Position numbers and translations under genes: made by a program. 64,000 bases of DNA, taken from IMG/VR virus record IMGVR_UViG_3300035086_000100, positions 1-64,000 of that record. One strand, given 5' to 3'. This DNA comes from a virus. The notes beneath the pieces were generated by a model that saw only the letters and a list, made by a program, of their open reading frames with translations, was not told the origin of the DNA and made no database searches. Within the stretch, counting starts at the first letter, position 1. Every line of letters begins with the position of its first letter. This document shows, in pieces, positions 2,252 through 24,790 of this stretch.

Positions 2252-5200
2252 TCATCTCGGCGAGTACGCGGACCGGTAAGCAGATTTCGACGCTGCCGCC
2301 CCGAGGGCTTCGGCGACCCCGTCAGCGGTCATCCCGGCGTTGTCGTAGACGGCCCCGATGAGCCGGGAGATCAGCCCGGCCACGTCGCTGAGGGACGCTC
2401 CCTGCGGCTGGCTGCCGCTGTCCCTGGTCAGGTGCTCGGGCCTGCCGGTGCGGTTGTCCATGAGCGTGATCCCGGGCGGGAGCCAGCCGCCGTTGTCGAA
2501 CGACCGGAGACGGGGGTTCGGCCCGGCCAGCCCCCGCCCCCCGGTCGAGGCACTGGGAGGCACCCCGAAGCCGGTGTTGCCGCCCGAACCGGAGATCAGC
2601 GTGCCCAGGGCGGGGTCGGCGGCGTTCATCATCGTCCCGTTGCCGATACTCAGCCCGACGTGGGTCGCGCCGCCGCCGGTTCCGTAGAAGAACACGAGTG
2701 CCGCCGGCTGGTCGCCGCTGGGCTGCGCCCACAACTGCTGTTCCTGCGACGTACGGGGCGCGGGAATCCCGAAATGGTGATAGACGAATGACGTGTAGCC
2801 GCTGTTGTGGACTACCAGGCCGTTGGCCACGAAGTTGTGCGTGCCGTCGACCGTGATGTCGTAGGTATCGGCCTCGCCGAGCGGCGTCACCGACAGCAGC
2901 GGCTCGGTCTCGAACCGGCCCTGCTCCAGCCTCACCAGCAGGTCGCCGGGCCGCAGGGAGTCAACCTGAATCCACGCGTGCCCGTCGCCGGGCGCGTACT
3001 CCCCGCCAGGGCGGATCACCAGGAACGGGTGATTGCCGCTGGCCTTCAGTTCCCGCGATGCCGTCGCCACCAGGTACGTCATCTGGAAGCGCGGCTCGGA
3101 GCGCCTGAGAACGCGCCTGAGGACCGGCTTTCCCTGGTCCCAGGTGATGACCGTGTCCCCCGCTGTCACGCTCACGATCGGCTTGAGGCCGTCAGCGGTG
3201 CGCACGAGGGAGTCCCCGGTCAGGCAGCAGTCCCAGCCTCCGGGTGTCGTGCCCCCCCACACGTACGGGGTGCCGAGGAACTGCTTGGCGTACTCCAGGA
3301 TCGCCAGCGGCCCCCCGGTAGCATTGCCGAGGCCGCCCAGCAGTTGCGCCCGCGCGGCGGCGATGGACTTGCGGAGAGCGGCTGCGGCTGCCGTGGCGTC
3401 AGCCGACTCGATCATCGACTGGGTTGCGCGCCATTCCCGCGCATCGAACGCGCCGAGACCGTCCGGGGTGCCCGAGAAGCGGGCCGCGAGCCCTCCGCCG
3501 GCCATCTTCGGGAACCGCTTCTCGTTGACCGCGTCCATGAACGCGATGCCGTAATGGGCGACTGCCGCCGCGTTCTGCACGTACTCCTTGTTCGACAGCC
3601 GGAACAGGCCCGCCGTGTCGGAGGTGCCGGTGCCGGGACCGGTGATCAGGCCGCCCGTGGCCGCGCCGCCGTGCAGCTTCCCGGTCCCCCCGCCCACGGA
3701 GATGGTGCCGGCGTTGGTGATCGTGAACGAGCCGGAGCCCTTGACGGAGATCGTGACGGCCTTGGAGTGCACGCCGGCGATCTGGCCGATCAGCTTGTCG
3801 ACCTTCGCCGCGGCCTCTTTCGCGGTGTCCCCGGCGGCGATGAAGTCCCTGATGAGCTGCGCGCGTGCCGCAGCCTTCCCCGCTGCGGTGCTGCCGTTCT
3901 TCTCCACGCCGGCGGTGTAGGTGTCGACCAGCTTGTTGGCCTGCTGAGCGCTAAGGCCCTGGTGCACGAAGTCGGCGACCATCTGCGCCCGGAAATGCTG
4001 CGCGGCATCCGACGCGGTGCCGTTGTGCGCGACGGCCAGGGTGTAGGCGTCGGTGAGGGTTTTCGCCTTCTTGCTGTTCAGCGCCGACGTGGTGAGGTCG
4101 GCGGCGAACTGCGCCCGCGGGATGTGCCCGGCCTGGATCACCGCGGTCAGCTGTTTCGTGGCCTTGGCGAACGCGGCCTGGGCCAGCGCGGCGGCCATCG
4201 ACGACGCTTTCTTTTCCGCCGCCGCCAGGGCCGTTATCTGATCCCCCGCGCCGCGCAGGTTCTTCAGGCCTAGCGCCTTGCCGATATCGGCGTTGCTGCT
4301 GAGCGTCTTGTGGAGCTGATCGGCCAGTTTCCGGTACCCTGCGATGTTGGTGCCGGTCGCCTTGTCTGCCTGAGCCTGCTCGGCGACGAACTTGCCGGCC
4401 TTGCCGGTGACGTTGTCGAAGGCGTTGGCCAGCGTGGCGATGGCGAACGCCCCGGCGGCAGCGAAGTTGACCACCGGGATGAGCGCCGAAACCCCGCCGA
4501 GAATCCTCGCGCCGCCACCCTCTGCCGCCCTGGCAGCACCTCCGCCCGCAGCCCCCGCCGCGCCTTCAGCGCCCGCGACGCCCTTGCCGGCGATGCCGCC
4601 CTCGGCCCCGGCACCCACCATCGTCTCGGCGGCCCGCTGCATGTTCACCGATGCCGTGAGCATCGTGTCCCCGGCGGCCTGCATCGCGGCTGCGCCGCTG
4701 ACCTTGGTGGTGAAGTCGAGGCTGCCGCCGGGCGTGAGCAGGTTCCACAGCTTGGCGAGGCCCTGGCCGACGAAGTTCACCCCGACCGAGATGATCTTGC
4801 GGCCGAAACTGAACTTGGAGATCAGCAGCAGCGAGGCCGCCAGGTCGGCTACCGGCTGCACGAAGCCGGGCGGCAACTTGGCGATCAGGCCGAAGAACCC
4901 GGTCAGCAGCCGGATCTCGGCCCCGCCCGCAGGACCCCCGAGAAGCCCCCCGCCGAGCGTTTTCAGCGCCCCGCCGACCGCCAGCAGCAGATGCCCGACC
5001 ACCGGGCCGTTGTCATGCACCCAGGCCAGGAACTTCTGGATGTCCGCCCGCGACGCATCGGACTGGGACCACGTCAGGAACGAGGTTCCCAGGTGGGTGA
5101 TGCCCTGGTCCACGTCGCCGATCAGGGGCCTGAACTGGGGCAGCAAGATGATGAAGCCGTGGAAGAAGTTCAGCAGCGCCCCGCCGCCGGCGTTGATGAC

Positions 5201-6055
5201 GCTGCTTCCCTCGGTGCCGATGAACTTCGCGAACGCAGAGAACGCGGGCGAGGCCACCAGCGACGCGAACGCCGACCCCAGCGACGACACGACCTGCGAC
5301 ACGTCAGAGACGACGGGTTTCGCGAACGACATGGCCTTGGTGATCCCGGCCATCCACGGCGCCACCGACGCGGCGATCACCGGGGTCAGGGACTTCTTGA
5401 CCGCCGTCCACTGATCCGACATGGCGCCGAGCTGCTTCGACAGCGCGATCTGGGCCGGTGACATGTTGGCGTAGGCCAGGTTGATGGCCTTCTGCTCGGC
5501 CAGGTACGCCGACGACTTCGACGCCCCCGCCGCGATGGCCGCGTTGTACCGTTCCTGCGCGAGCTGGACCTTGGACGCCGCCGAGGACGCCTGCCCGATC
5601 ACCGACTTGGCGACCGAGCCGTACGCCGCGAGGGCGATCCCGCCGGTTGCCAGCGCCGACCCGAACGCCACCGCCGTGCCGGTAGCCGCGCCGAGGACCG
5701 TCATCGCGGCGGGAAGCGCCAGGATCGCCGGGCCGAGCCAGGCCGGGGCCTGCGACAGGCCGCCGGCGATCTTGACGCCGATGGTCTGGTCGGAGAACTT
5801 CTTCAGTTCCGCGATCTTGGCTTTGGCCCTGGCGGTGTCCAGGTCGACGTTGCCCTTGACGACGGGCTTCTTGCGCTTCAGTTTCTCGATCTCGGCGTCG
5901 GCCTTGGCCGGGTCCGCGCTGATCGGGACCGTGACACCTTCGCGGGCGAACTTGTCGGCGTCCGCCCTGGCGGCCCTCAGCTCGTCGTTGAACGGCGTCC
6001 TGTCCAGCGTGAGTCTTGCCTCGACGTCACCTGCGTTAAAAGCCGTGGGACTCAC
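2252..6055 (-). CDS. Tape measure protein with C-terminal NlpC/P60 peptidase interrupted by a mini-intein
   Basis: 1267 aa, Ala/Gly-rich, follows the tail chaperones; GTPYVWGG..WDC / SGYTSFVY..HVG NlpC/P60 motifs. Confidence 0.92.
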   Translation of the reverse strand: MSPTAFNAGDVEARLTLDRTPFNDELRAARADADKFAREGVTVPISADPAKADAEIEKLKRKKPVVKGNVDLDTARAKAKIAELKKFSDQTIGVKIAGGLSQAPAWLGPAILALPAAMTVLGAATGTAVAFGSALATGGIALAAYGSVAKSVIGQASSAASKVQLAQERYNAAIAAGASKSSAYLAEQKAINLAYANMSPAQIALSKQLGAMSDQWTAVKKSLTPVIAASVAPWMAGITKAMSFAKPVVSDVSQVVSSLGSAFASLVASPAFSAFAKFIGTEGSSVINAGGGALLNFFHGFIILLPQFRPLIGDVDQGITHLGTSFLTWSQSDASRADIQKFLAWVHDNGPVVGHLLLAVGGALKTLGGGLLGGPAGGAEIRLLTGFFGLIAKLPPGFVQPVADLAASLLLISKFSFGRKIISVGVNFVGQGLAKLWNLLTPGGSLDFTTKVSGAAAMQAAGDTMLTASVNMQRAAETMVGAGAEGGIAGKGVAGAEGAAGAAGGGAARAAEGGGARILGGVSALIPVVNFAAAGAFAIATLANAFDNVTGKAGKFVAEQAQADKATGTNIAGYRKLADQLHKTLSSNADIGKALGLKNLRGAGDQITALAAAEKKASSMAAALAQAAFAKATKQLTAVIQAGHIPRAQFAADLTTSALNSKKAKTLTDAYTLAVAHNGTASDAAQHFRAQMVADFVHQGLSAQQANKLVDTYTAGVEKNGSTAAGKAAARAQLIRDFIAAGDTAKEAAAKVDKLIGQIAGVHSKAVTISVKGSGSFTITNAGTISVGGGTGKLHGGAATGGLITGPGTGTSDTAGLFRLSNKEYVQNAAAVAHYGIAFMDAVNEKRFPKMAGGGLAARFSGTPDGLGAFDAREWRATQSMIESADATAAAAALRKSIAAARAQLLGGLGNATGGPLAILEYAKQFLGTPYVWGGTTPGGWDCCLTGDSLVRTADGLKPIVSVTAGDTVITWDQGKPVLRRVLRRSEPRFQMTYLVATASRELKASGNHPFLVIRPGGEYAPGDGHAWIQVDSLRPGDLLVRLEQGRFETEPLLSVTPLGEADTYDITVDGTHNFVANGLVVHNSGYTSFVYHHFGIPAPRTSQEQQLWAQPSGDQPAALVFFYGTGGGATHVGLSIGNGTMMNAADPALGTLISGSGGNTGFGVPPSASTGGRGLAGPNPRLRSFDNGGWLPPGITLMDNRTGRPEHLTRDSGSQPQGASLSDVAGLISRLIGAVYDNAGMTADGVAEALGAAASKSAYRSAYSPR
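2804..3226 (-). mobile_element. Mini-intein (141 aa, no endonuclease) in the NlpC/P60 active site
   Basis: Starts CLTGDSLV, block B ASGNHPF, block F TYDITVDGTHNF, ends VVHN followed by Ser. Confidence 0.92.
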
Positions 6056-6348
6056 CCCCCGGCGAGTTCCGCCCTCATCGCCAGCAGGTCAATAACGTCC
6101 GCTCCGGTATCCGCTGTCCGCTGCGTGATCCCGGCCTTCTCCGCCAGTTCCTCGCCGGACTCGGGCAACTCGATCAGGCCCTCGGCGGCGAATCCTTCGA
6201 CGTGGTTCCGCTGCTCCCACCATTCGAGGGAGTCCCATTCGGCCGTGCCGTAGTTGAGGTGGCGTCTCGCCAGATGCAGGATCAGCCGGCGGCTGGAGAC
6301 CGCACTATCGCTAGAGGCGGACTGCCAGCGCCGGTCACGGCTTCCGGG
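6052..6348 (-). CDS. Tail assembly chaperone, frameshifted C-terminal part (GT)
   Basis: Open -1 frame overlapping the upstream chaperone, ending at the tape measure start; EWDSLEWWEQ motif. Confidence 0.65.
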   Translation of the reverse strand, partial: PGSRDRRWQSASSDSAVSSRRLILHLARRHLNYGTAEWDSLEWWEQRNHVEGFAAEGLIELPESGEELAEKAGITQRTADTGADVIDLLAMRAELAGG

Positions 6349-6788
6349 TCCATCACCTCTTTCATCAGCCACTCGACGAACGCGGCCATGATGCGGTGCG
6401 GCAGCAGCAGCAGGATCTCCGTCGACGGGTCGCCGGAGCACAGCTTGGAGAACATGGCGGCCTCGCGCCTGCGGGTGGCGTCGCCCTTCTTCGCGTCCGC
6501 GCTGGCCAGTGCGGCGAGCTGGGCGTCTGTCGCGTCCGGGCCGGGTTCGGCTGCCTCGCCGGCCGCATCCGCGGTTTCCGCGTCCGCTACAGCCGCCCTG
6601 GCTTCCCTCCGGAGCCGCTGCATCTCCCTGGCTGATGCCTGGAGGTATGCCTGCACCTGGAGGGAGGTGGGCTCCCGGATCGTGCCCTTCGCCTCGGCTA
6701 GCTCCCTGATGTTGTTCGGAGGGCCGGCCAGCGCCGAAAAATCGTAGTCAAGTCTCTCAAGCACCGTTCCGGCGTTGAAGGTGGCCAC
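6282..6788 (-). CDS. Tail assembly chaperone (G)
   Basis: Position between major tail and tape measure genes; 168 aa, helical. Confidence 0.75.
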   Translation of the reverse strand: MATFNAGTVLERLDYDFSALAGPPNNIRELAEAKGTIREPTSLQVQAYLQASAREMQRLRREARAAVADAETADAAGEAAEPGPDATDAQLAALASADAKKGDATRRREAAMFSKLCSGDPSTEILLLLPHRIMAAFVEWLMKEVMDPEAVTGAGSPPLAIVRSPAAG

Positions 6789-6803
6789 GGCATCCTTTCC
6801 GGA

Positions 6804-6843
6804 TTGACTTGTGGTGCTACCACAGATAGAGTGGTGCTACCAC
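6804..6843 (+). promoter_or_regulatory. Housekeeping-type promoter with two GTGGTGCTACCAC operator boxes
   Basis: TTGACT-17 bp-TAGAGT; identical 13-bp near-palindromes at 6811-6823 and 6831-6843. Confidence 0.8.
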
Positions 6844-6861
6844 CGAATGAGGGAGCACCGG

Positions 6862-7272
6862 ATGACAGCCGCGAGGGCACAGAAGAACATGGACGCCGCA
6901 CTGGTCCTGCTCGCCGCCCGCTATGAGCGCGTCGCGATGCACGCGGTCAAGGCCACACAGGACGTACCGGCTGACGGCGACGACTACGCCGATGCGGATG
7001 GCCACGAGATCGCCGCACAGTTGGGGATCTGGAACATCCGCGCCATCTCAGGCGGCCGGGTCACGATCCGCAAGACCGGGATCACGCTTCCCTGCGGCAA
7101 CGGCTACTCAGTAACGATCGACCTTGCAGGGAACGACACCTACACCGTGCGCCGGATCTTCACCCGCGCCGGCAAGGTCTGGGTCAAGGGCGAGCGCACC
7201 GACGTTTACGCCGATCAGGTCGGCGAGGTTGCCTACCGCGCCGGGATGTTCCGCGACGTGTGGGCAGCCTGA
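6862..7272 (+). CDS. Hypothetical protein (island cargo)
   Basis: RBS GAGGGAG, downstream of the 6804 promoter. Confidence 0.7.
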   Translation: MTAARAQKNMDAALVLLAARYERVAMHAVKATQDVPADGDDYADADGHEIAAQLGIWNIRAISGGRVTIRKTGITLPCGNGYSVTIDLAGNDTYTVRRIFTRAGKVWVKGERTDVYADQVGEVAYRAGMFRDVWAA

Positions 7273-7514
7273 TGGGCGACCGCCACAAGCACGGCCCGAT
7301 CTCCTTCCGGCCAACGGAGGGGGACCGGGCATGGCTTCACGACTACGCCGCCGAGACCGGTCGGCCAGTGCGCGCCGTACTCAAGGAAGCGCTGGCCGAG
7401 TACCGGCTACACCGCAGCGTCAACGGCAAGATCGTCATCCACAAGGACGGCGATCCCCGGAACAACAACCCCGCCAACCTGGAGATCAGGGAAGCACCAG
7501 AGGAGAAGCAGTGA
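7272..7514 (+). CDS. Ribbon-helix-helix-like regulator with a short HNH-like remnant
   Basis: ISFRP..RAWL..YAAETGRPVRAVLKEAL pattern; HKDGDPRNNNPANL tail; TGATG coupling. Confidence 0.6.
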   Translation: MGDRHKHGPISFRPTEGDRAWLHDYAAETGRPVRAVLKEALAEYRLHRSVNGKIVIHKDGDPRNNNPANLEIREAPEEKQ

Positions 7515-7885
7515 GCTACGCCTACGAAGCCGCGACCGGCAGCAAGCTCGGGATAACCCGGTGCGACGAAGGCCACCTGATGATCACGGCTGTCTCCTGG
7601 GCGAGCGACTCCGGCATACCGGTCTGCGTCGCTGCCCAGGACGCGCCCGGGGTGCTGGACGAGATGTGCGAGTGGGCGCAGATCGAGACCCGCGCGAGCC
7701 TGCTGGCCAAGGTGGCGGGACTGGAGGCCGAGAACCTGCGGCTGAACAGGCAACTGACCGCGAAGTGGCTGGACGAATCGCCGGCCACGTTCTCCGGGCT
7801 GGACGGCGCCGACCCGATCAGGTGGGACGACGACGGCGCACGGCATGCCAGCGAGCCGTCTGGCAGCGAAGTGGACACCCCATGA
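7511..7885 (+). CDS. Hypothetical protein
   Basis: GTGA overlap, RBS GAGGAG. Confidence 0.6.
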   Translation: MSYAYEAATGSKLGITRCDEGHLMITAVSWASDSGIPVCVAAQDAPGVLDEMCEWAQIETRASLLAKVAGLEAENLRLNRQLTAKWLDESPATFSGLDGADPIRWDDDGARHASEPSGSEVDTP

Positions 7886-8172
7886 GGATCTACGTCAGGG
7901 GACCGCACCTAGGACCCGTACGGACCACGCTCTGGTCATCGGGCAGCAGCAGCAACGGCGGGTGCCTGGCCCTGTTCCTCGCGTTCGGGCTGTCCCTGGG
8001 CATAGTCGCGCTCGGGGCGTTCCTGGTCAGTCACTGGCAGGTCACGCTGATAGCGGCCGGGGTGGTAGCGCTTCTGCTGGCCGGAAGGTACGGGAGGCGC
8101 AGGGAAAGGGCTCAGGCGGCAGCGAAGCCGGAGACACCGGAATCGCCGGCCGCGCAAAGCGACCGCAGGTAA
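7882..8172 (+). CDS. Small membrane protein (2 TM)
   Basis: ATGA overlap; two hydrophobic stretches. Confidence 0.6.
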   Translation: MRIYVRGPHLGPVRTTLWSSGSSSNGGCLALFLAFGLSLGIVALGAFLVSHWQVTLIAAGVVALLLAGRYGRRRERAQAAAKPETPESPAAQSDRR

Positions 8173-8181
8173 CAGGAGGCA

Positions 8182-8394
8182 GTGATGGACCTCAAGCCGC
8201 TGGCACCCGGGCAGAAGGTAACGGTCTACAAGATGTACTACTCGTTCTGCCCCAACCCCGGATGCGGTGCGATCAACGACTACGCCGACACGATAGGAGA
8301 AGCACGGAAGAACGCGAAGGCCCACGAGCGCGCCCACAACGCTGGCCGCACGGAGCGACCGGCGGTAACGGGGCCTACGAGCCAAGATGAATGA
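8182..8394 (+). CDS. Small putative Zn-finger protein
   Basis: RBS AGGAGG; CPNPGC...HERAH. Confidence 0.55.
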   Translation: MMDLKPLAPGQKVTVYKMYYSFCPNPGCGAINDYADTIGEARKNAKAHERAHNAGRTERPAVTGPTSQDE

Positions 8395-8561
8395 AGGCTC
8401 CCGCCACGCCCGGGCAGCGCTGCTCCCAGGTCATCCGCTCGCACCTGGGGCACCTTCCCCCGGCCGACATGTGAGAGTTCGTGTCGGCCGGGCTCCCGGT
8501 GACGGTCAGGCTTCCCGGCACCGTGTTAGAGGTCCATGCCGTGGTCATCTTGGCCTCCTGG

Positions 8562-9200
8562 TCAGTAGTGGCGCCACGTCTTGCCGGCGACGATCAGGCT
8601 GATGCTCGGGCCGCTCACGTCGTACTCGGTCGCGAGGTCGGCCTGCAACTCGCCAGCAGCGGCGCGGCTGCGGATGTCCGCGACGATTGCCCACGTGAGC
8701 TTGGCGTGCTTGTTCTTCTCGCCGCGATTCGCCGACCGATCCCGCACCTTGTCTTCTGCGTCCTCGGCGGGTGTGCCGTAGCAGAGATTCGCTAGCCGGT
8801 TATCGAGATAGCGACCAGGACCGTGCCGGACTTGCTGACCCGGAGGGCACGGGCCGACGAACGCCTGCGCGACTAGCTGGTGGACATAGGCGGTTACCCC
8901 GCCCCCGTCCCGGCACAGCTTCACGGCGAGGTAGCCGTACTGGCCGGACGTGAACGGCTTGAGCGTGCGGCCGGGATGCCCTAGCCGGGATTCACTGCGG
9001 ACGCGCCCGAGGTCGCTGACGTCATACAGCCCCTCCCAGCCGACCACGGGAAGCCATCGCTCTCCGGGCAGGTCGGGCGTTACCTTTGGTGCCGGCTGCC
9101 CGAGCGGATCGCCGTACTTGTACCAGCGCTTGTAGTGAGCGCCGCACCAGTCGCGCTTGTGCCAGGGATTGTCGCAGAGCGAGCATGTACGATCGGCCAC
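8562..9200 (-). CDS. Free-standing NUMOD4-HNH homing endonuclease with C-terminal HTH
   Basis: ERWLPVVGWEGLYDVSDLGRVRS (NUMOD4); VHQLVAQAFVGP..VRH..DNRLANL (HNH). Confidence 0.9.
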   Translation of the reverse strand: MADRTCSLCDNPWHKRDWCGAHYKRWYKYGDPLGQPAPKVTPDLPGERWLPVVGWEGLYDVSDLGRVRSESRLGHPGRTLKPFTSGQYGYLAVKLCRDGGGVTAYVHQLVAQAFVGPCPPGQQVRHGPGRYLDNRLANLCYGTPAEDAEDKVRDRSANRGEKNKHAKLTWAIVADIRSRAAAGELQADLATEYDVSGPSISLIVAGKTWRHY

Positions 9201-9356
9201 GTCGATGCCTCTTACCAGGTGTCGGTGACGCTCTGGTGCCTGCTACTTGGAGAGGTGCAGGCACTGGAGCCTAATTCGCACATTCTATCGGATCGATGAT
9301 CCTATGGGTCACTGAACACACTGTGCGGCCTATCCCGATGTCGAATCGGACAAACG

Positions 9357-9965
9357 CTATGAAGTCGCGATTGCCGTCAAATCCACCCACACGATGGACG
9401 AGAAGGCACAAGTGGCACCAAAGGTACAGGGGTATAGCCTCTGGTTCGCCGCGCGCCGGTAGGACGTGGCCACCGTGCCGCTGGACATGACTCCCGGGAT
9501 GCTGAGCACCCGCGCGAACCCGAACTGGTTCTTGCCGATGACGGCACAGGCAAGCGTCGGGAAGTTGAGCGACATCGACAAAACGCTCTTGCCAGGCTGG
9601 CCAGCCCCCGGCGCGGTGACCGCTATGCTGCCCGCTGCCCCGTAAGCTACGTTCAGGTTTGTCAGGGTCTCTTCCGAGAAGTTAAAGCTGACCTCGAAGG
9701 TCGCTTTGTCCACTATCTTCGCTACTGGTGTAGGTTGTTCCTCAATACTGATATCGACCACCGAAGGCGTCCATGTCAGGGTAACTCCCGCGTCGGTCGC
9801 GCCGATGTAGGACCACCCGCCGCCAGTCCACGACGACCCGACGCCCAGGTTCTGGTCCGAGGGAAGGGCCGTGTTCAGGGGCGCGGTGAACACCAGGCCG
9901 AGCCCGTAAAGCACGTTGGTGGTGGTGACTGCGGGAGGCGTGTAGAGAAGCGGTGCGCCGGCCAT
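9357..9965 (-). CDS. Major tail (tube) protein
   Basis: WSYIGATDAGVTLTW..F.F.EETLTNL tail-tube pattern; synteny. Confidence 0.85.
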   Translation of the reverse strand: MAGAPLLYTPPAVTTTNVLYGLGLVFTAPLNTALPSDQNLGVGSSWTGGGWSYIGATDAGVTLTWTPSVVDISIEEQPTPVAKIVDKATFEVSFNFSEETLTNLNVAYGAAGSIAVTAPGAGQPGKSVLSMSLNFPTLACAVIGKNQFGFARVLSIPGVMSSGTVATSYRRAANQRLYPCTFGATCAFSSIVWVDLTAIATS

Positions 9966-10045
9966 GGTCGGGTCTCCTTAGCTGAGGCATGCGGAAAGCC
10001 GCCACGGCGGGGCGGGAATGGGTGCTAGCCGTTTAGGCTGCGACG

Positions 10046-10621
10046 ATGAGCGCGATAGGTGATCCGGTGCCGGTGGCTATCCGGGTACTGCTGCGGGTCG
10101 AGTACGCGGACGGGCAGATCCGGGAGTTCGAGGCCGACCGGCCCGATGCGCTGAAGCTGGAGATCAGCCGCCCGAACTGGCCGCAGATCAGCCCCGAGCG
10201 CGCGCTGGAGTTCCCGGCCGGCGACGTGTTCAGCGTGAGCCTCGGCTTCACGCGCAACGGCGATCCCCGCAAGCACCCGATGACGCTGCGGCACTACGCC
10301 AGCGGCGAGCGGGTCATGGTCACGCCGGATGAGCTGTCAGACGAGGCGCGCAAGGCGCGCAAACTGGCTGACGCCATGACCGAGATGGCCGCGCGCCTGC
10401 CGCCCGGTGCCGCCGAACTCATCGCCGGAATGCCTGTCGACGTGGCGCTGCACAAGCTCGGCTGGACGGGCGAACTTCCGGCGCCGGTTACGGCTGAGCG
10501 GCCGAAACTGGAGTGGCTGGCCGCGCACGGCACCTACATGACGGACGAGGAGAAGCGGCGGCTAGGGGAACTGCGGGCCGCGCTGACCGCCGGGCTATCG
10601 CAGCCAGGCGACCCGGCCTAG
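10046..10621 (+). CDS. Hypothetical protein (leaderless island gene)
   Basis: TAGGCT -10 box 6 nt before ATG; CTAG stop overlap with the convergent gene. Confidence 0.65.
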   Translation: MSAIGDPVPVAIRVLLRVEYADGQIREFEADRPDALKLEISRPNWPQISPERALEFPAGDVFSVSLGFTRNGDPRKHPMTLRHYASGERVMVTPDELSDEARKARKLADAMTEMAARLPPGAAELIAGMPVDVALHKLGWTGELPAPVTAERPKLEWLAAHGTYMTDEEKRRLGELRAALTAGLSQPGDPA

Positions 10622-11385: not shown

Positions 11386-12090
11386 CTATGAATTGTCCGG
11401 CACCCACTTCTGGAGGTCGGCCTGCACGGTGAGCGTGAACGCGGCCGACGCCCCGATGGCGAGCACCGCGATCCGGAACGTCGACCCGGGGAAGCCCTCG
11501 AACGGCACCGAGTACCGGTCGGTGGTCGCCGGGACGGAGGGAAGCAGCACCTGGCCGCCCGTGATCAGGCGGTTCAGGACGGTACCCGGCGCGGGGGAGA
11601 CGGCACTGGACCATGCCCACGTCGGCGCGGCCGAGTAGGTCATGGAGATAGCGCCGGCGGCGGGAACGATGTAGGTCCCGGCACCGGCCCCGACCGTGAC
11701 GCTGTTGACGACCACCGCGGTCATGGTGCCGCCCGTGATCACCACGGTCACCGGGTAGGTGTTCGGGTTCTGGACCGCGACCGTGGTGGCGGGGACGGAC
11801 GGGGTGGCGGGTGCCGCCGTGCCCAGCGCCGCCGCGACCGAGGCGAGCTGCTCCGCGGCGGGGTTCGGGTACCACGAGGTGGACAGGCCCTCGGCGGTGT
11901 CCTGGTGCTGGAACAGCAGGTACAGCGCCGTGGGGGCGGTGGTGATGGCGGCGAACTTGACCCGCAGCAGGCCCCGGACGAAGTCGGAGCCGCCCTGGGT
12001 GATCGTTCCGGGGGTGAGCACGCCGGGGGAGACCGCTCCGGTGCAGGCGAGGGCGGTCGCAAGGGTCAGCTGGTCAGTCTCGTAGCCCAA
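11386..12090 (-). CDS. Putative virion structural protein
   Basis: Thr/Ala/Val-rich, in the neck-tail cluster. Confidence 0.6.
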   Translation of the reverse strand: MGYETDQLTLATALACTGAVSPGVLTPGTITQGGSDFVRGLLRVKFAAITTAPTALYLLFQHQDTAEGLSTSWYPNPAAEQLASVAAALGTAAPATPSVPATTVAVQNPNTYPVTVVITGGTMTAVVVNSVTVGAGAGTYIVPAAGAISMTYSAAPTWAWSSAVSPAPGTVLNRLITGGQVLLPSVPATTDRYSVPFEGFPGSTFRIAVLAIGASAAFTLTVQADLQKWVPDNS

Positions 12091-12104: not shown

Positions 12105-12518
12105 CTAGTTTCCGGCAATGCAGATGTAATTAGTTACAAACTCGTACCTGTCGCCGTCGTCAGGCCCTGAGGCGAGCGGTGACGGGGTGCCGCCGAGGCG
12201 GTGAACGTGGACGATGACGCGCCCGCTGATGACGGCAGGGAACTGCGCGCCGAGGATGAGGGCGTCGAGCGCGTAGGCGTCGGCCTCGGCGCCGGCCTGG
12301 TCGTTCTGGCCGCCCCGTACCCGCGCCTGGAACCCGCCGGCGTCGGCGGCGCCTTCCAGCAGGTAGCCCGGCCCTGGGGTCACGGTGATGACCACGAGCC
12401 GGTCAGGTGAGTCGGGGATGTAGGGGCCGGCCAGGACGGGGGAGCCGGTTTCCTGGGTGGCGTCCCATCCGAGGGTGCCGGTTATCCAGGCGATGACGGA
12501 CGTGGTCGGCAGCGGCAC
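12105..12518 (-). CDS. Tail terminator / minor capsid-family protein
   Basis: PDSPDRLVVIT..FQARVRG..DDGDRYEFVTNY. Confidence 0.8.
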   Translation of the reverse strand: MPLPTTSVIAWITGTLGWDATQETGSPVLAGPYIPDSPDRLVVITVTPGPGYLLEGAADAGGFQARVRGGQNDQAGAEADAYALDALILGAQFPAVISGRVIVHVHRLGGTPSPLASGPDDGDRYEFVTNYICIAGN

Positions 12519-12553: not shown

Positions 12554-12835
12554 ATGCCCCCGATACCTGATGCCCGGATCGAAATCTCGCAGGCCGACCT
12601 GCTACACGTCCTGCTCTGCGCCCTGAGTTACGACGCCAGACTGCCCTACGGCCTCATACCCGAGGGGATATACGGCGCACTGAACGCGGAGGGCAAGCAG
12701 TGGATAGACAGCCAGCCGCCGCCCGGTGAGCCACGGAAATTACGGCCTCGCCCGGAGTGCTCGCAGCCGTTCGCGGACAGCGGGATCAGCAGGGAAACCC
12801 CACCGCCCGTACTTGCCGAGCGCCAGTCCCGCTGA
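12554..12835 (+). CDS. Hypothetical protein (island gene)
   Basis: TAGACT box upstream of ATG; 3' end overlaps the convergent gene. Confidence 0.5.
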   Translation: MPPIPDARIEISQADLLHVLLCALSYDARLPYGLIPEGIYGALNAEGKQWIDSQPPPGEPRKLRPRPECSQPFADSGISRETPPPVLAERQSR

Positions 12836-12952
12836 TGACGGTTCCCTGCACACGACAGCGGGCCTGCGGCGGTAGTCGACGTCGTGATGGCGGTCGAACG
12901 CGCTGAGGGAGGCGAACGAGAGCCCGCACGGCGAGCATGTGCAGGCGGCCAC
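12740..12952 (-). CDS. FDXHR-type Zn-binding small protein
   Basis: CSPCGLSFASLSAFDRHH...C...GL. Confidence 0.65.
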   Translation of the reverse strand: MAACTCSPCGLSFASLSAFDRHHDVDYRRRPAVVCREPSSAGLALGKYGRWGFPADPAVRERLRALRARP

Positions 12953-13140: not shown

Positions 13141-13643
13141 CTAGATGCCCCGGCTCCACAGGAACCGGAGTTCTTTCAGGCTGAACTTCGACGGCACCGG
13201 GTGATGGGCGCGGTAGATAGCCTTCAGTTCGTCCTCGGATAGCCGGTGCTGGCGAGGTTCGCGGTCGTAGACGGTCGCTCCGTCGCTGGTGACGCTGGGA
13301 TGCCCTGAGGCGCGGAGGTTGGAGTACAAAACCGGAGCCCTAGTGGCCACTCCGCCGTCTTCCGCCAAGTCCTCAACGGAGCGGACCATCCCCGGTTCCG
13401 GGCCTTCGTCCAGGAGCGTCCTGGCGATGTCCTCGAAGTAGCCGCGATAGTTCGTCATCAGCGGTTCGGTGAGGTACATGGCCTGGCCGCCGCGGGGGTG
13501 CTTGAAATCTAGCCGCTAAAAGCCCCTCGTGCTGATATCTGGCGTAAATGCCCTAAAATCTGGTCAACCACGACAGTACCAATGAGGTCGCCGTGCCCGA
13601 CCAGATCCTCCAGCTCTTGCGTTCGCTCAGCGAAGGTGCTCAT
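13141..13643 (-). CDS. Neck / head-tail joining protein (HK97 gp10-like), 160 aa if two 10-nt inserts are bypassed
   Basis: RBS GGAGGAGG and ATG at 13643; removing 13547-13556 and a second 10 nt near 13510-13519 restores DQIYARYQHEGLDFKHPRGGQAMYL in frame with ORF 13141-13479. Confidence 0.8.
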
Positions 13644-13667
13644 GACCACCTCCTCCGAGCCATGCGT

Positions 13668-14177
13668 CTACCGCCACCCGTCGATGAGCCTTGATCCCGC
13701 AGCACCCGCCGGCATGATCCCGCCCCGCCCGTCCGGCTCGGTGCCGCTATCCTCGTATTTAAAGATAGACGGAATGGTGTTTACGACGTGCCCGCCATTG
13801 CTTACCGGGTCATTAGGCGGAGTGGGTACCACGTCTATCTTTCCGGCCTGAATGTCATTCAGCGTCTTAATCGCATCTTGATAGCCGAGATAGACCGGGT
13901 CAAAGGCACTCAGGTCTTTGCCTTTGCGGTAAGTCAGTGTCGCGTAAAAGGTTGCGAGCTGAATCGCGACTGTCTTGATCAGGTCGGGGATCACGATGAC
14001 CGGGTCATTGGCGTCCACAAACCACGCCGTGCCGGCATAGGCCGAAACCTTGGCCGACGCCTGGGCAATCGCGGCCTGCAACTGGGCGTCCTCAAGCGCA
14101 GCGCACGTCCCCGTGCCCGCATCCGTTCCTGCCACGTTGGACCGGATATCGGCGGGAGTGCAGTACGAAACCGGCAT
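13668..14177 (-). CDS. Head-to-tail adaptor (Mu gp36-like)
   Basis: YCTPADI..AIAQASAKVSAY..IPDLIKTVAIQLATF..YQDAIKTLNDIQAGKI. Confidence 0.8.
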   Translation of the reverse strand: MPVSYCTPADIRSNVAGTDAGTGTCAALEDAQLQAAIAQASAKVSAYAGTAWFVDANDPVIVIPDLIKTVAIQLATFYATLTYRKGKDLSAFDPVYLGYQDAIKTLNDIQAGKIDVVPTPPNDPVSNGGHVVNTIPSIFKYEDSGTEPDGRGGIMPAGAAGSRLIDGWR

Positions 14178-14221
14178 GTTGACCCCTCTTGCGTCGGCAT
14201 GCCCGGTTAAAGTCTCACGTC

Positions 14222-14419
14222 ATGGATCAGATCAAGTGGGTCAAGAGTTCCCTGAGCAACAGTTTCGCCAACTGCGTGGAGGTCGCTGACCTGGGAGGAG
14301 GCACGGTGGGCGTCCGCGACTCGAAAGACCCGGACGGCCCGGTGCTGGTGTTCACTCCCGGCGAGTGGCAGGCGTTCCTCGGCGGGGCACGGGGCGGCGA
14401 GTTCGACCGGTTCGGCTAA
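14222..14419 (+). CDS. DUF397 domain protein
   Basis: WVKSSLS..NCVEVA..VGVRDSKDPDGPVLVFTPGEWQAF. Confidence 0.92.
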   Translation: MDQIKWVKSSLSNSFANCVEVADLGGGTVGVRDSKDPDGPVLVFTPGEWQAFLGGARGGEFDRFG

Positions 14420-15401: not shown

Positions 15402-16313
15402 TTAGATACCCGACAAAAGTACGAAAGCTAGGGGTTCGTCAAGCCCTATGGCGGATTGGCGCTGAATATCCGATCTGCTGGACTTGGTCTTTTCGTCTCG
15501 ATACAGGGGACTTGCCTGAAATTCCAGCTCATCCGCGACAAACCCGCATCTCTGCCGCATAAGCACCAAGGCGTTGCCCGAAGGGATCTGCCTTGACCGC
15601 AAGGTGTCGAGATCGAGGATTTTATTAGGAAGTACCCCCGTGTACTGGAGGTTTTCTGACGCTATGTCCCCGATGTACGGCGCCGCGAAGGAACTGCTCT
15701 GAATGAGGGTATTCTTCGTTCCTGTCCCGATAATCATCGTGTCGGCCTCGAAGCCCAGGTACGACGTGAAGCCGAGGCTGCTGGGCACGCTGGCGTTCTC
15801 GACCAGGAACACCGCATTGGCGATGTCTGCCCGGATCGTCGCGTTGGACGATGCCCACGGCGCGCCCACCGCGAGGGTCTGGATGCCCCCGTTGGCGACC
15901 ACGGCGCTGTAGAAAGCCTGCTCCCACGAGTACGTCATCGTGTTCTTCACCTGGCGGAGCTGCCTGGTCAGCGGGTCCATGATCATGCGGCGGCGCATCT
16001 GGTCGGAGACGCTGACCGCCATCGCGCGCTCGTGGGTGAACACCACGCGCGGAATCCCGACGCTGGTCGGCACGACCGGCACCTCGCCGAACTCGGCCCG
16101 GATCTCGGGCACGTCATCGGCGTACAGCGGCGTCGACTCCGAGTAGCGCACGGCGCCGCTGTTCGTCATCCCGCCCTTCCGCAGGATCACGTCCATGATG
16201 AACTCGTTCTGGGTCATTTCCAGGATGAGTTCGGGGATGATCAGCGGGTCCTTCAGCAGCGCGTCATAGGTGATGCGCGGGCCGTCCATGCTGGTGATCG
16301 AAGAAACTGGCAC
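15402..16313 (-). CDS. Major capsid protein
   Basis: 303 aa; LLKDPLIIP..EFGEVPV..AIGLDEPLAFVLLSGI; follows protease and decoration genes. Confidence 0.88.
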   Translation of the reverse strand: MPVSSITSMDGPRITYDALLKDPLIIPELILEMTQNEFIMDVILRKGGMTNSGAVRYSESTPLYADDVPEIRAEFGEVPVVPTSVGIPRVVFTHERAMAVSVSDQMRRRMIMDPLTRQLRQVKNTMTYSWEQAFYSAVVANGGIQTLAVGAPWASSNATIRADIANAVFLVENASVPSSLGFTSYLGFEADTMIIGTGTKNTLIQSSSFAAPYIGDIASENLQYTGVLPNKILDLDTLRSRQIPSGNALVLMRQRCGFVADELEFQASPLYRDEKTKSSRSDIQRQSAIGLDEPLAFVLLSGI

Positions 16314-23341: not shown

Positions 23342-23516
23342 GCGCGTGATCGAACGGGACCTCTGTCACCTGGCCGTCCGGGATCGCCCTGATCTCGGCG
23401 GCCATCTTCACGTACAGCCGCACGTTCCTGGCCGTTCTCGGCACGCCGGCGTCACGGAAATCCCTGCCCGCCGCCGCCGCCATCAGCATCTTGTGCGCAG
23501 CCTCGCCGCGTTCCAT
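23316..23516 (-). CDS. 66-aa protein, candidate immunity protein for the zeta domain
   Basis: TGATG coupling to the zeta-domain gene. Confidence 0.5.
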   Translation of the reverse strand: MERGEAAHKMLMAAAAGRDFRDAGVPRTARNVRLYVKMAAEIRAIPDGQVTEVPFDHALMPDVPPA

Positions 23517-24790
23517 CACGTGAACCTCTCGTGTTCCTTCGCCAGGAACCTTGCCCACGCCTTCTTGTCCTGCACCGACCAGTCGCCGCCCGCCGGCTTG
23601 GAGCCGATGAGGTGGATGGACCGGTCGGGCCGGTCGTTGTTGTCCCACAGTTCCGCCGAGTCGAACAGCCCGTTCTTCACTGCCTGCCGGAACGCCCCCG
23701 TCACCGACGCGTGGGTTTCGCGCAGGTAGGTAAGCGGCACGACGCGGCCGGTTTTCGCCGCCCGCTGGTCGGCCCTGCCCGCCGCCGTGGCCGTGTCGGC
23801 CGTCACGTACTGGCCGTGCACCCGGTAGCCGGCCGCCTTCGCCTCCGCTGCCTTCCCCGCGAGCTTCGGGTAACTGGAATCCCCGGTCCCGTCGAGAGTA
23901 AAGTCCCGTTTCCCGGCGACCGCGCGGGACATGATCTTCTTCGCCAGCGCCGACGATTCCTCGTGCACGAAAGCGGCAGCGCCCTTATCGCCTGCCGCGA
24001 CGCCCGTCTGGTATTCGGGAAGCTGCGCCTTGATCGCGTCCGGGTCGATGACCACGCCGCTTACCGGGCTCTGCTTCAGCATCGCCGACTTGCCCGACGC
24101 CGGGCCGCCGCCCATGAACGTCGCCACCGGGTCATGCGACGGCGAGGTCCCCGCCAGCGCCCTGCCGATGATTTTCTCGTGCAGCGCGGCACGCTCCGGG
24201 GTGAGCTGGCCGTCGCGGGTGTGCTGCTCAAGGCTGTCCGCGAACGTCCCGCCGCCCTTGGCGAACTTGCCGTGGAAGCCGCGCGGGTGCAGCGCCTCAT
24301 CCCAGGCCAGTCCGATCGCTGTCCCTTCGCCGGCCAGGTTCTTCGCCGCCGCCTGCCTCTTGTGCACCGCATCCCACGGACCCGACGCCGTTTTCGCTGT
24401 CCCCACCCATGCCGTGACCGGCCGTCCCAGGGCGATGCTCGCGAGTGACCGGCTGTGGCCATCTACGAGGCGCAGGAGGTTCGTGCCCGGACGCCTCACC
24501 GCGACTACCGGCTTCCGTGCCCCCGAGCGGAGCGACGAGACCATGGAGGCGATCTTCCGCTTGTCCGCTGCCGCGAGTTTCCAGTTCGGGTCGGAGCGGT
24601 CAAGCTGGCGGGTGGGCACCTGAACCGGGCCTTTCGTCCATGCCAGGTCATCGACCCAGGCCAGGGCACCGGGCGGGTAATCGCGGGCCAGTTGCAGCTT
24701 GACCTCTTCGGCCGTCGTCAGCTTCCGTGGCGTAGCGAGGGGCGCATGCGGATCCGAAACGGGTGATGCCGACGCTTGCGGAGCGGACAT
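23516..24790 (-). CDS. ParB-like domain, HPR motif and zeta-toxin-family P-loop kinase fusion
   Basis: PVV..LVDGHSR; WDEALHPRGFHGKF; GGGPASGKS, IDPDAIK..LPEY, VHEESS, LDGT. Confidence 0.85.
   Translation of the reverse strand: MSAPQASASPVSDPHAPLATPRKLTTAEEVKLQLARDYPPGALAWVDDLAWTKGPVQVPTRQLDRSDPNWKLAAADKRKIASMVSSLRSGARKPVVAVRRPGTNLLRLVDGHSRSLASIALGRPVTAWVGTAKTASGPWDAVHKRQAAAKNLAGEGTAIGLAWDEALHPRGFHGKFAKGGGTFADSLEQHTRDGQLTPERAALHEKIIGRALAGTSPSHDPVATFMGGGPASGKSAMLKQSPVSGVVIDPDAIKAQLPEYQTGVAAGDKGAAAFVHEESSALAKKIMSRAVAGKRDFTLDGTGDSSYPKLAGKAAEAKAAGYRVHGQYVTADTATAAGRADQRAAKTGRVVPLTYLRETHASVTGAFRQAVKNGLFDSAELWDNNDRPDRSIHLIGSKPAGGDWSVQDKKAWARFLAKEHERFT

What the first reader, a model, noticed from the sequence alone, without database searches (positions are those of the whole stretch)
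13501..13560. Two tandem 10-nt TTA-triggered translational bypass elements in a neck gene
Seen: the minus strand reads GAC CAG ATT [TTA GGGC ATT] TAC GCC AGA TAT CAG CAC GAG GGG CTT [TTA GCGG CTA] GAT TTC AAG CAC. Each bracket is exactly 10 nt, starts with TTA and ends in a codon matching the one before it (ATT/ATT; CTT/CTA). Skipping both gives a 160-aa protein with the neck-protein motif YARYQHEGLDFKHPRGGQAMYL. Normal reading stops after 44 codons. In a manual scan I found no other in-frame TTA in the minus-strand structural genes. Known: UUA is the rare, developmentally controlled (bldA tRNA) codon of streptomycetes, and single 10-nt UUA bypass candidates have been proposed in Streptomyces phage genes. 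Inference: two in series act as an AND gate, so head-tail joining happens only when tRNA-Leu(UAA) is scarce.
Basis: partly seen in the sequence, partly recalled or inferred. Interest (0 to 1): 0.95.

Follow-up and report, generated by a model that had tools for sequence, protein, structure and literature searches.

The report
Two TTA-led ribosome-hop gaps, neck gene

Summary
On the minus strand, 13556-13547 (TTAGGGCATT) and 13519-13510 (TTAGCGGCTA) split one gene into three frames. Removing exactly these 10-mers gives a 160-aa protein that aligns without gaps to intact 160-161-aa homologues.

- **Not decay.** The gene is single-copy. The part upstream of the gaps is under purifying selection as strong as the rest. 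The sister phage L016 keeps both gaps, with changed gap sequences and co-varying take-off and landing codons (ATT/ATT versus GTC/GTC).
- **TTA is otherwise almost absent.** I count 3 in 30,233 called codons of the 99-kb record.
- **The family has a hot spot.** 24 of 110 distinct related loci carry 4-13-nt gaps, all within codons 29-38. Most are headed by TTA, a few by AGA, TGA or CGA. In 21 of 23 gap types the landing triplet matches the take-off codon at two or more bases.
- **The design is known.** phiHau3 terminase, read directly, has the same codon-TTA-4 nt-matching codon pattern, twice.

Best reading: translational bypass triggered by a slowly decoded codon. The "AND gate" and bldA control ideas are untested, and the host is unknown. 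Earlier notes of this scan describe similar gaps on other DNA. This is a new member of a known kind.

The parts
13557..13643 (-). Segment 1 of the gene: ATG 13643-13641 through take-off codon ATT 13559-13557 (29 codons, MSTF...VVVDQI). An alternative GTG start lies at 13649.
   Evidence: It aligns to residues 1-30 of intact homologues. dN/dS against sister L016 is 0.16.
13547..13556 (-). Gap A: TTAGGGCATT, 10 nt. TTA is the next codon in frame. The +1 frame reads TAG at once. The last 3 nt (ATT) repeat the take-off codon.
   Evidence: Relatives carry equivalent gaps at the same codon.
13520..13546 (-). Segment 2: nine codons (YARYQHEGL) in the +1 frame, ending in take-off codon CTT 13522-13520.
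   Evidence: It matches the conserved motif of the family; Y31, Q35, H36 and L39 are invariant in A1.
13510..13519 (-). Gap C: TTAGCGGCTA, 10 nt. TTA is the next codon. The +1 frame reads TAG. The landing codon CTA is synonymous with CTT. GAGGGG lies directly 5' of the take-off codon.
   Evidence: L016 has CTT[TTAGCTA] at the same codon.
13141..13509 (-). Segment 3: 122 codons (DFKHPRGGQAMYL...WSRGI) plus stop TAG 13143-13141. Gene callers report only its last 112 codons, from ATG 13479.
   Evidence: (141 homologues, E down to 1e-65).
13509..13511 (-). TAG that ends the zero frame if the first TTA is decoded as leucine, giving a 44-codon product.
13668..14177 (-). Upstream neighbour: Mu gp36-like head-tail adaptor. 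It abuts the gene, with no endonuclease gene between them.
   Evidence: PF07030, 3.9e-9; phrog_195.
12105..12518 (-). Downstream: tail terminator. Between it and the gene lies a small FDXHR zinc-binding-like ORF (12740-12952, minus strand).
   Evidence: PF12691; PF24071, below the curated cut-off.

Best explanation
The gene at 13643-13141 (minus strand) encodes one 160-aa virion protein that is made only when ribosomes skip two 10-nt non-coding gaps.

**Proposed steps (inferred)**
1. At each gap the ribosome holds peptidyl-tRNA on the take-off codon: ATT (Ile29), then CTT (Leu38).
2. It waits for the very rare codon UUA in the A site.
3. Because Leu-tRNA(UAA) is slow to arrive, the peptidyl-tRNA unpairs and the mRNA slides 10 nt.
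4. The peptidyl-tRNA re-pairs with the matching landing triplet (ATT, then CTA).
5. Decoding resumes at the next codon (TAC, then GAT).
6. If UUA is decoded instead, the product ends after 44 codons (gap A), or runs on out of frame (gap C).

**Shown:** the gaps, their exact length, the intact protein once they are removed, purifying selection on all three segments, retention with co-varying codons in a sister phage, and the same design in phiHau3.

**Inferred:** the hop itself, its efficiency and its dependence on tRNA supply.

**Why the gaps exist is open.** My odds are about 0.3 for a sensor of UUA-decoding capacity (bldA-like control), about 0.35 for scars that protect the conserved site from homing endonucleases and are tolerated because hopping rescues the gene, and the remainder for neutral retention.
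For: 1. Removing exactly the two 10-mers gives a protein that is gap-free against 160-161-aa homologues; P0018, for example, reads VVVDQVYAKYQHEGLDFVHPRGG.
2. The nine middle codons keep residues that are invariant in the family, in their own frame.
3. There is no second copy in the 99-kb record.
4. dN/dS of codons 1-39, upstream of the last gap, is 0.06-0.4 in pairs of gap-bearing loci, about the same as for codons 40-160.
5. The window and L016 are sisters (support 97/95) at 76% protein identity, and both carry gaps A and C. The gap sequences differ: ATT[TTAGGGCATT] versus GTC[TTAAAGGGTC], and CTT[TTAGCGGCTA] versus CTT[TTAGCTA]. Take-off and landing codons changed together.
6. 24 of 110 distinct related loci have frame-breaking gaps. 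All of them lie within codons 29-38, and none lies elsewhere in codons 1-134.
7. In 21 of 23 gap types the landing triplet shares at least 2 of 3 bases with the take-off codon; the binomial tail is 2e-15 against a 0.156 chance rate.
8. TTA occurs once in 14,850 spliced codons of these genes outside the gaps, yet heads most of the gaps. In this phage it occurs 3 times in 30,233 codons.
9. A simple +1 slip is a dead end, because both gaps read T-TAG in the +1 frame.
10. phiHau3 terminase reads GGC[TTACTCCGGT]AAG and TCT[TTAACGGTCC]ACG, the same design. Its g6/g7 junction peptide was found by mass spectrometry in E. coli (PMC10732093).
Against: - There is no protein or ribosome data for this phage.
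- The host is unknown, so scarcity of tRNA-Leu(UAA) is assumed. The assumption rests on TTA avoidance and on actinomycete-type genes in the phage (WhiB, DUF397).
- No significant mRNA structure surrounds the gaps (z = -0.43), and no conserved 5' stimulator was identified.
- The match between take-off and landing codons could partly reflect how the inserts arose (micro-duplication) rather than selection for re-pairing.
- The published evidence for the mechanism is itself partial: it comes from E. coli, and the authors say it does not prove regulatory bypass.
- Two hops in series imply a low yield.
- The inserts were not checked against raw reads.
Confidence: 0.75

Rival explanations
1. The gene is a pseudogene. 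The inserts inactivated it, and this metagenomic genome is defective or uses another protein.
For: The reading frame is broken twice. Automatic gene calls give only a 112-aa remnant.
Against: - The segments upstream of the gaps are under purifying selection equal to the rest of the gene.
- Both gaps persist in a sister lineage at 76% identity, with compensating changes.
- Gaps recur in 24 of 110 loci at a single 10-codon hot spot and nowhere else in codons 1-134.
- The gene is single-copy and sits in a conserved position in the virion module.
Confidence: 0.04
2. Recoding occurs, but not by two exact 10-nt hops. Possibilities are shorter hops of 4 or 7 nt that add one or two residues, or one -1 shift at the zero-frame stop (GGC TAG) that joins segment 1 plus 15 alternative residues to segment 3.
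For: - The net shift needed from the first to the last frame is -1.
- Relatives show gaps of 4, 5, 7, 8, 11 and 13 nt, so the distance is not fixed.
- The 5-nt gap TAC[TTAGC] (L088 and L108) has a poorly matching landing triplet.
Against: - A single -1 shift would replace the invariant YA.YQHEGL motif, which is preserved exactly in the middle frame.
- Intact homologues show no length variation at these columns.
- The triplets matching the take-off codons sit exactly where a 10-nt hop would land.
- The +1 frame has an immediate TAG in both gaps.
Confidence: 0.08
3. The 10-mers are removed before translation, either at the RNA level (an unknown excision or editing step) or in a subpopulation of genomes by deletion between the 3-nt repeats.
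For: Each gap is flanked by a short direct repeat (ATT...ATT; CTT...CTA). Nothing in the data excludes RNA processing.
Against: - I know of no excision system for 4-13-nt inserts (my own knowledge).
- The near-universal rare codon at the zero-frame position of the gap head points to the ribosome, not to an RNA or DNA enzyme.
- For phiHau3, bypass was seen from a plasmid-borne gene in E. coli.
- Deletion between 3-nt repeats would be far too rare (my own knowledge).
Confidence: 0.07
4. The inserts are an assembly or sequencing artefact.
For: The record is a metagenome assembly, and I could not lay reads on it.
Against: - Two different 10-nt inserts with the same design lie 37 nt apart.
- Independent assemblies from other samples carry similar gaps in the same gene. 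One is a virus record (L074) whose spliced product matches a protein that NCBI names for Amycolatopsis taiwanensis.
Confidence: 0.02

Closest known systems
UUA-headed coding gaps in the large terminase gene of Streptomyces phage phiHau3 (g6/g7/g8); Smith et al. 2013 as cited in Antonov et al. 2023, RNA Biol 20:926 (PMC10732093)
   Same: There are two 10-nt gaps in series in one essential virion-assembly gene. The design is identical: take-off codon, TTA, 4 nt, synonymous landing codon (GGC..GGT and TCT..TCC there; ATT..ATT and CTT..CTA here). I read this directly. The genome is high-GC and TTA is very rare.
   Different: - The gene is different: an unnamed 160-aa protein between adaptor and tail terminator, not the terminase.
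- The phage is an unrelated, uncultured ~100-kb phage with an unknown host.
- The gaps lie 37 nt apart near the 5' end of the gene.
- The terminase of this phage has no such gap and instead carries a LAGLIDADG domain.
- No experiment has been done on this phage.
7-nt UUA gaps in the terminase genes of the StrepC.1 and Streptomyces catenulae prophages (PMC10732093)
   Same: These are short UUA-headed frame-breaking inserts within conserved coding sequence. Relatives of this window's gene also have 7-nt versions (L005, L016, L143).
   Different: Each is a single gap, in the terminase gene. Only 3 of 100 terminase genes carried gaps, against 24 of 110 loci for this gene.
Phage T4 gene 60 50-nt bypass with the mobA homing endonuclease
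   Same: Take-off and landing codons match, and the non-coding insert sits in an essential gene. Some relatives (L008, L011, L017, L143, L145) have an HNH endonuclease gene directly upstream of the gapped gene. This echoes mobA and gene 60.
   Different: The gap here is 10 nt, not 50. The A-site codon is a rare sense codon, not a stop. No nascent-peptide signal or stem-loop signal was identified. No endonuclease gene is adjacent in this window; the nearest HNH_3 gene is at 8562-9200.
Short hops at 'hungry' codons in E. coli (Weiss et al. 1987 and Gallant et al. 2003, as cited in PMC10732093); many short bypassed inserts in Magnusiomyces mitochondria (Lang et al. 2014)
   Same: A slowly decoded A-site codon lets peptidyl-tRNA re-pair at a nearby matching codon. 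Landing on a triplet that matches at two of three bases is tolerated.
   Different: Those cases are laboratory constructs or mitochondrial elements. Here the gaps are natural, conserved features of phage structural genes in high-GC hosts.

Membership tests
phiHau3-type UUA-initiated short coding gap | A short (7-10 nt) insert breaks the frame of a conserved gene relative to intact homologues. | tested here: met
   Two 10-nt inserts are present. Once they are removed, the product aligns gap-free to 160-161-aa homologues.
phiHau3-type UUA-initiated short coding gap | The gap begins with TTA as the next zero-frame codon after the last conserved codon. | tested here: met
   ATT|TTA and CTT|TTA. 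The same holds in phiHau3: GGC|TTA and TCT|TTA.
phiHau3-type UUA-initiated short coding gap | The triplet at the 3' end of the gap matches the take-off codon (landing site). | tested here: met
   ATT/ATT (3 of 3 bases) and CTT/CTA (2 of 3, synonymous). Family-wide, 21 of 23 gap types share at least 2 of 3 bases.
phiHau3-type UUA-initiated short coding gap | The host or genome treats UUA as exceptionally rare (Streptomyces bldA biology). | tested here: inconclusive
   The phage genome has 3 TTA in 30,233 codons. It carries WhiB and DUF397 genes. Cultured homologues of the gene occur only in Streptomyces phages. However, the host of this record is unknown, and no bldA gene could be examined.
phiHau3-type UUA-initiated short coding gap | The full-length protein is made by bypass (junction peptide detected). 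| not testable with these tools
   This needs mass spectrometry or reporter assays.
phiHau3-type UUA-initiated short coding gap | Proposed 5' stimulators: a Shine-Dalgarno-like element and a local stem-loop. | tested here: inconclusive
   GAGGGG lies directly 5' of take-off codon CTT at gap C, and there is no clear element at gap A. The fold of 13485-13590 is not better than shuffled sequence (z = -0.43).
T4 gene 60-type bypass cassette | A homing endonuclease gene is adjacent to the gapped gene. | tested here: not met
   The adaptor gene abuts the start of the gene. The nearest HNH_3 genes are at 8562-9200 and about 7260-7514. The feature is met in relatives L008, L011, L017, L143 and L145.
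T4 gene 60-type bypass cassette | A stop codon follows the take-off codon, and the gap is long (about 50 nt) with a stem-loop. | tested here: not met
   The A-site codon is the sense codon TTA and the gap is 10 nt. One relative, L145, has TGA at the gap head.
+1 programmed frameshift (prfB-like: CUU U, with SD 3 nt upstream) | A one-base slip gives an open, productive frame. | tested here: not met
   After a +1 slip, both sites read TAG immediately (ATT T|TAG and CTT T|TAG).
Phage neck / head-closure protein | Sequence or fold similarity to a characterised neck protein. | tested here: inconclusive
   - No Pfam family.
- Weak phrog_556 'minor head protein' hit, E = 3e-4.
- No Foldseek match.
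- Best VIA-align Z is 5.2, to unrelated cyclases.
- No PDB sequence relative.
- The position between adaptor and tail terminator is conserved, also in Streptomyces phage Marky gene 19.

The most novel reading that the evidence does not exclude
Hopping at slowly decoded codons may be a general, evolvable way of decoding in phages of high-GC actinomycetes. Any take-off codon followed by UUA, AGA or UGA, then 1-10 nt, then a near-matching triplet would be skipped. This would let essential virion genes carry small inserts. The 10-codon hot spot in this gene would arise from repeated attack by homing endonucleases on the adjacent conserved DNA. The surviving gaps, two in series here, would then make virion assembly depend steeply on the host's UUA-decoding capacity, that is, on its developmental state.
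Probability: 0.3. Interest if true: 0.85.

Novelty: new member of a known kind. Interest (0 to 1): 0.7.

Why it matters
**State of the field.** In the papers I found, published evidence for UUA-triggered bypass rests on three terminase genes, one of them tested. Its authors call it a neglected hypothesis and a likely 'hidden treasure trove' (PMC10732093).

**What this case adds**
- A second, unrelated essential gene with the identical two-gap design.
- A sister lineage that shows take-off and landing codons co-varying.
- A gene family in which about a quarter of natural loci carry some 23 different gap designs within ten codons.

**What it could be used for.** This is a ready-made natural mutant series for working out the rules of short-range bypass: permitted lengths, which slow codons work, and how closely the landing triplet must match. 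It also allows a test of whether the gaps sense tRNA supply or mark homing-endonuclease conflict.

**Practical point.** Gene callers split or truncate such genes. 54 of the 120 listed database homologues are under 150 aa, and many of these have N-termini read from the wrong frame.

Tried and rejected
- **DNA similarity:** no DNA match to any cultured phage.
- **Genome scan:** the scan of one genome per species found pattern matches but no confirmed relative.
- **Protein family:** Pfam gives no family for either piece of the gene. PHROGs gives only sub-threshold or weak hits.
- **Structure:** an AlphaFold model of the intact homologue (pLDDT 77.6) has no Foldseek match in the PDB. VIA-align gives only Z <= 5.2, to cyclases and pterin enzymes. 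A profile search of PDB sequences gave spurious repeat-protein hits. The fold and exact role of the protein therefore remain unassigned.
- **mRNA structure:** the fold around the gaps is not better than shuffled sequence.
- **Other gaps in the record:** the contig has no tRNA genes, so the phage does not supply its own tRNA-Leu(UAA). My scan of uncovered stretches and a scan for the gap design found no other gapped gene in the 99-kb record. The design scan was too strict to recover even the known pair, so small gaps near the 5' ends of genes cannot be excluded.
- **Rejected mechanisms:** transcriptional slippage on the T4 runs (ATTTTA, CTTTTA), because removing one T or adding two still gives TAG. 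A single +1 or -2 shift, for the same reason.
- **Endonuclease link:** tested and not met in this window. In relatives the association is only modest: 5 of 23 gapped versus 5 of 86 intact loci have a nuclease or AP2 gene directly upstream (Fisher p = 0.03).
- **Tree:** it does not prove independent origins. It needs 11 label changes, but the well-supported branches force only one.

Full report
**1. The observation**

TTAGGGCATT lies at 13556-13547 and TTAGCGGCTA at 13519-13510.

The likely start is ATG 13643, with GGAGGAGG 5 nt upstream. A GTG lies two codons further up. Read normally, the frame ends after 44 codons at TAG 13511-13509. With both 10-mers removed, the frame runs for 29 + 9 + 122 = 160 codons to TAG 13143-13141.

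Gene callers see only a 46-aa ORF and a 112-aa ORF.

**2. It is one gene in three frames**

- The 123-aa C-terminal frame has 141 database homologues. Most of the close ones are 160-161 aa.
- The spliced product aligns to them without a single gap across both junctions. Compare window ...VVVDQIYARYQHEGLDFKHPRGG... with P0018 ...VVVDQVYAKYQHEGLDFVHPRGG....
- tblastn with P0018 gives three abutting matches in frames -1, -2 and -3, covering query residues 1-30, 30-39 and 39-161. There is no second copy in the 99-kb record.
- A frameshift-aware aligner that I wrote places two skips of exactly 10 nt. The boundaries can slide by three bases, because the codon before each gap is repeated at its end (ATT..ATT) or repeated synonymously (CTT..CTA).

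**3. Context**

- The window is the first 64 kb of an IMG/VR virus record. The record is 99,059 bp, 69% G+C and linear, with a CheckV completeness estimate of 89%. It has no tRNA genes.
- On the minus strand the gene order is: capsid 15402-16313, Mu gp36-like adaptor 13668-14177, this gene, a small FDXHR-like ORF 12740-12952, tail terminator 12105-12518, major tail protein 11386-12090.
- The same order holds in relatives and in cultured Streptomyces phages such as Marky, where the intact homologue is gene 19, annotated 'hypothetical protein'.
- 'Neck gene' is therefore a reading from gene order. Pfam, PDB sequences, Foldseek and VIA-align give no assignment, and PHROGs gives only a weak 'minor head protein' hit.
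- The host is not known. The phage carries WhiB and DUF397 genes. Cultured homologues of this gene occur only in Streptomyces phages. One gapped relative, L074, has a spliced product matching P0119, which NCBI names for Amycolatopsis taiwanensis. A filamentous actinomycete host is likely but is an inference.

**4. TTA is otherwise avoided**

- My codon-score gene calls give 172 genes, 91% coverage and 30,233 codons. They contain three in-frame TTA, all in small low-scoring ORFs. One of these is probably a false call lying opposite the FDXHR ORF.
- In the spliced neck genes of 110 distinct related loci there is one TTA in 14,850 codons, while TTA heads most of the gaps.

**5. The gene is not decaying**

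| Pair of gap-bearing loci | dN/dS, codons 1-39 | dN/dS, codons 40-160 |
|---|---|---|
| window - L016 | 0.16 | 0.27 |
| L017 - L024 | 0.25 | 0.29 |
| L008 - L091 | 0.33 | 0.25 |

- Other pairs give 0.06-0.4 for codons 1-39. The part upstream of the gaps is as constrained as the part downstream.
- On a maximum-likelihood tree, the window and L016 are sisters (support 97/95) at 76% identity, and both carry gaps at the same two codons.
- Their gaps differ in sequence: ATT[TTAGGGCATT] versus GTC[TTAAAGGGTC], and CTT[TTAGCGGCTA] versus CTT[TTAGCTA].
- At gap A the take-off and landing codons changed together at two positions. This is what a requirement for re-pairing predicts.

**6. A family-wide hot spot**

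Scans of IMG/VR and of JGI metagenomes gave 160 loci, of which 110 are distinct and alignable.

- 24 have frame-breaking inserts, including 17 of the 27 closest.
- Every one lies at codons 29-38. None lies elsewhere in codons 1-134. Apparent events beyond codon 135 are alignment noise in the divergent C-terminus.
- I verified 23 gap designs in the DNA:

| Position | Gap designs (take-off codon, then gap in brackets) |
|---|---|
| After DQ / codon 30 | GTT[TTAGCGGGTG], GTA[TTACCCGGTC], GTA[AGACCCACCGGTC], GTA[AGACCCCGGTC], ATT[TTAGATG], CAG[TTAACTG] |
| Within Y-Q-H | TAC[TTAC], TAC[TTAGC], TAC[TGACCACTTAC], CAG[TTACCGCTCAG], CAG[TTACCCGG], CAG[TTACGCGG], CAA[TTATCCGA], CAA[TTACCCGA], CAG[AGACGCGCGG], CAT[TTAC], CAG[CGATCTAG] |
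| After EGL | the two forms given in section 5 |
| In-frame | CAC[TTACCC], CAG[TTAATTCTG] |

- Lengths are 4-13 nt.
- The head codon is TTA in 18 designs, AGA in 3, TGA in 1 and CGA in 1.
- The landing triplet shares at least 2 of 3 bases with the take-off codon in 21 of 23 designs (chance rate 0.156; binomial tail 2e-15). CAA pairs with CGA and CAG with CGG.
- Many short database homologues have N-termini that are simply the wrong-frame reading of such gaps.

**7. Comparison with the known case**

- Antonov et al. 2023 (PMC10732093) report, after Smith et al. 2013, two 10-nt UUA-containing blocks in the phiHau3 terminase gene and 7-nt blocks in two prophage terminase genes. That is 3 of 100 terminase genes.
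- They also report a junction peptide found by mass spectrometry for g6/g7 expressed in E. coli.
- I read the phiHau3 record directly. The gaps are GGC[TTACTCCGGT]AAG and TCT[TTAACGGTCC]ACG. This is the same design as here: codon, TTA, 4 nt, synonymous codon.
- The window is therefore a new member of this kind, in a different gene and a different phage lineage.
- The phage's own terminase (30423-33257) has no such gap. It has a LAGLIDADG domain instead.

**8. Mechanism and rivals**

- A one-base slip cannot work, because the +1 frame reads TAG at once in both gaps.
- Slippage on the T4 runs gives the same stop.
- A single -1 shift at the zero-frame stop would discard the invariant YA.YQHEGL motif, which is preserved in the middle frame.
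- That leaves skipping of the gap. A ribosomal hop at a slowly decoded codon, with re-pairing at the matching triplet, explains the head codon, the matching triplet and the variable lengths.
- RNA-level or DNA-level removal cannot be excluded without expression data. It does not explain why the gap head is a rare codon in the zero frame.
- I found no significant local RNA structure. GAGGGG lies directly before the second take-off codon.

**9. Why the gaps are there**

Points against a designed gate:
- The number of gaps varies from 0 to 2, and they occupy three positions.
- Some heads are not TTA.
- Only the window-L016 lineage has two frame-breaking gaps.

An alternative came from earlier notes of this scan, and I tested it here:
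- HNH_3 or NUMOD4 endonuclease genes lie directly upstream, on the opposite strand, in gapped relatives L008, L011 and L017/L018. By similarity, the same holds for L143 and L145.
- Five intact loci have AP2-type or Endo VII-like genes in that position. The association is modest (5 of 23 versus 5 of 86, p = 0.03).
- The hot spot lies just 5' of the most conserved DNA of the gene, codons 43-52.
- In this window no endonuclease gene is adjacent. A NUMOD4 + HNH_3 gene about 50% identical to those of L008 and L011 lies at 8562-9200.
- A 120-bp patch just upstream of gap A is 92-95% identical to L016, against about 70% in the flanks. The close backbone relative L008 drops to about 55-63% over the same stretch. 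This points to local exchange of the segment.

Both purposes remain open.

**10. Verdict**

The bypass reading is well supported by comparative evidence but not by experiment. The regulatory reading is speculative. Earlier notes of this scan describe similar TTA-led gaps in other genes of other phage genomes. None was found for this gene family by sequence look-up.

Noticed in passing
window 30423-33257 (-): The large terminase ORF is 944 aa. It has a Terminase_6C domain at residues 717-863 and a LAGLIDADG_3 domain at 354-402, so it probably contains an intein or an embedded homing endonuclease. It has no TTA gap.
   Followed up: partly
window 8562-9200 (-) and 7260-7514 (+): A NUMOD4 + HNH_3 homing-type endonuclease and a second short HNH_3 ORF sit in a block of mixed-strand genes (about 6800-10620) that interrupts the tail module. 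The first is about 50% identical to the HNH genes found directly upstream of the gapped gene in relatives L008 and L011.
   Followed up: partly
window 6058-6258 (-): A stretch with a clear coding signal but no start of its own, in another frame, lies between the 168-aa ORF 6282-6788 and the tape measure gene 2252-6055. It looks like the usual programmed frameshift extension of a tail assembly chaperone.
   Followed up: no
window 13580-13700 (-), versus L016 and L008: Mosaic patch: 92-95% nucleotide identity to L016 just upstream of gap A, against about 70% in the flanks. The otherwise closer relative L008 falls to 55-63% over the same stretch.
   Followed up: partly
window 14189-14419 (+); 39375-39668 (-); 60806-61120 (+): A DUF397 gene sits on the opposite strand inside the head-tail module. 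The phage also has a WhiB gene and a weak match to the WhiA C-terminal HTH. These are genes typical of sporulating actinomycetes and bear on the host.
   Followed up: partly
window 23516-24790 (-): A 424-aa protein with a zeta-toxin / AAA_33 kinase domain lies among the head genes.
   Followed up: no
L074 2991-3000 (IMG/VR record 2515154032_000003) and protein P0119: The 139-aa 'hypothetical protein' that NCBI names for Amycolatopsis taiwanensis appears to be a mis-called product of a gapped copy of this gene (GTA[TTACCCGGTC]). Its N-terminus is the wrong-frame reading. This would be a cultivable source of a gapped copy.
   Followed up: partly
L003 2757-3038, L005 2733-3026, L007 2714-2953, L024 2779-3027, L108 858-1040 (all opposite strand): A family of small Cys-rich ORFs (about 60-97 aa) runs antisense across or just upstream of the 5' end of the gene, in four gapped relatives and one intact one. 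It has no Pfam match and its role is unknown.
   Followed up: no
genome C1 89918 and 90597 (beyond the window): The only other in-frame TTA codons in my gene calls lie in two small early-region ORFs. The second is preceded by GGGAGG and followed by GTG, so it may lie just upstream of a very short gene.
   Followed up: no
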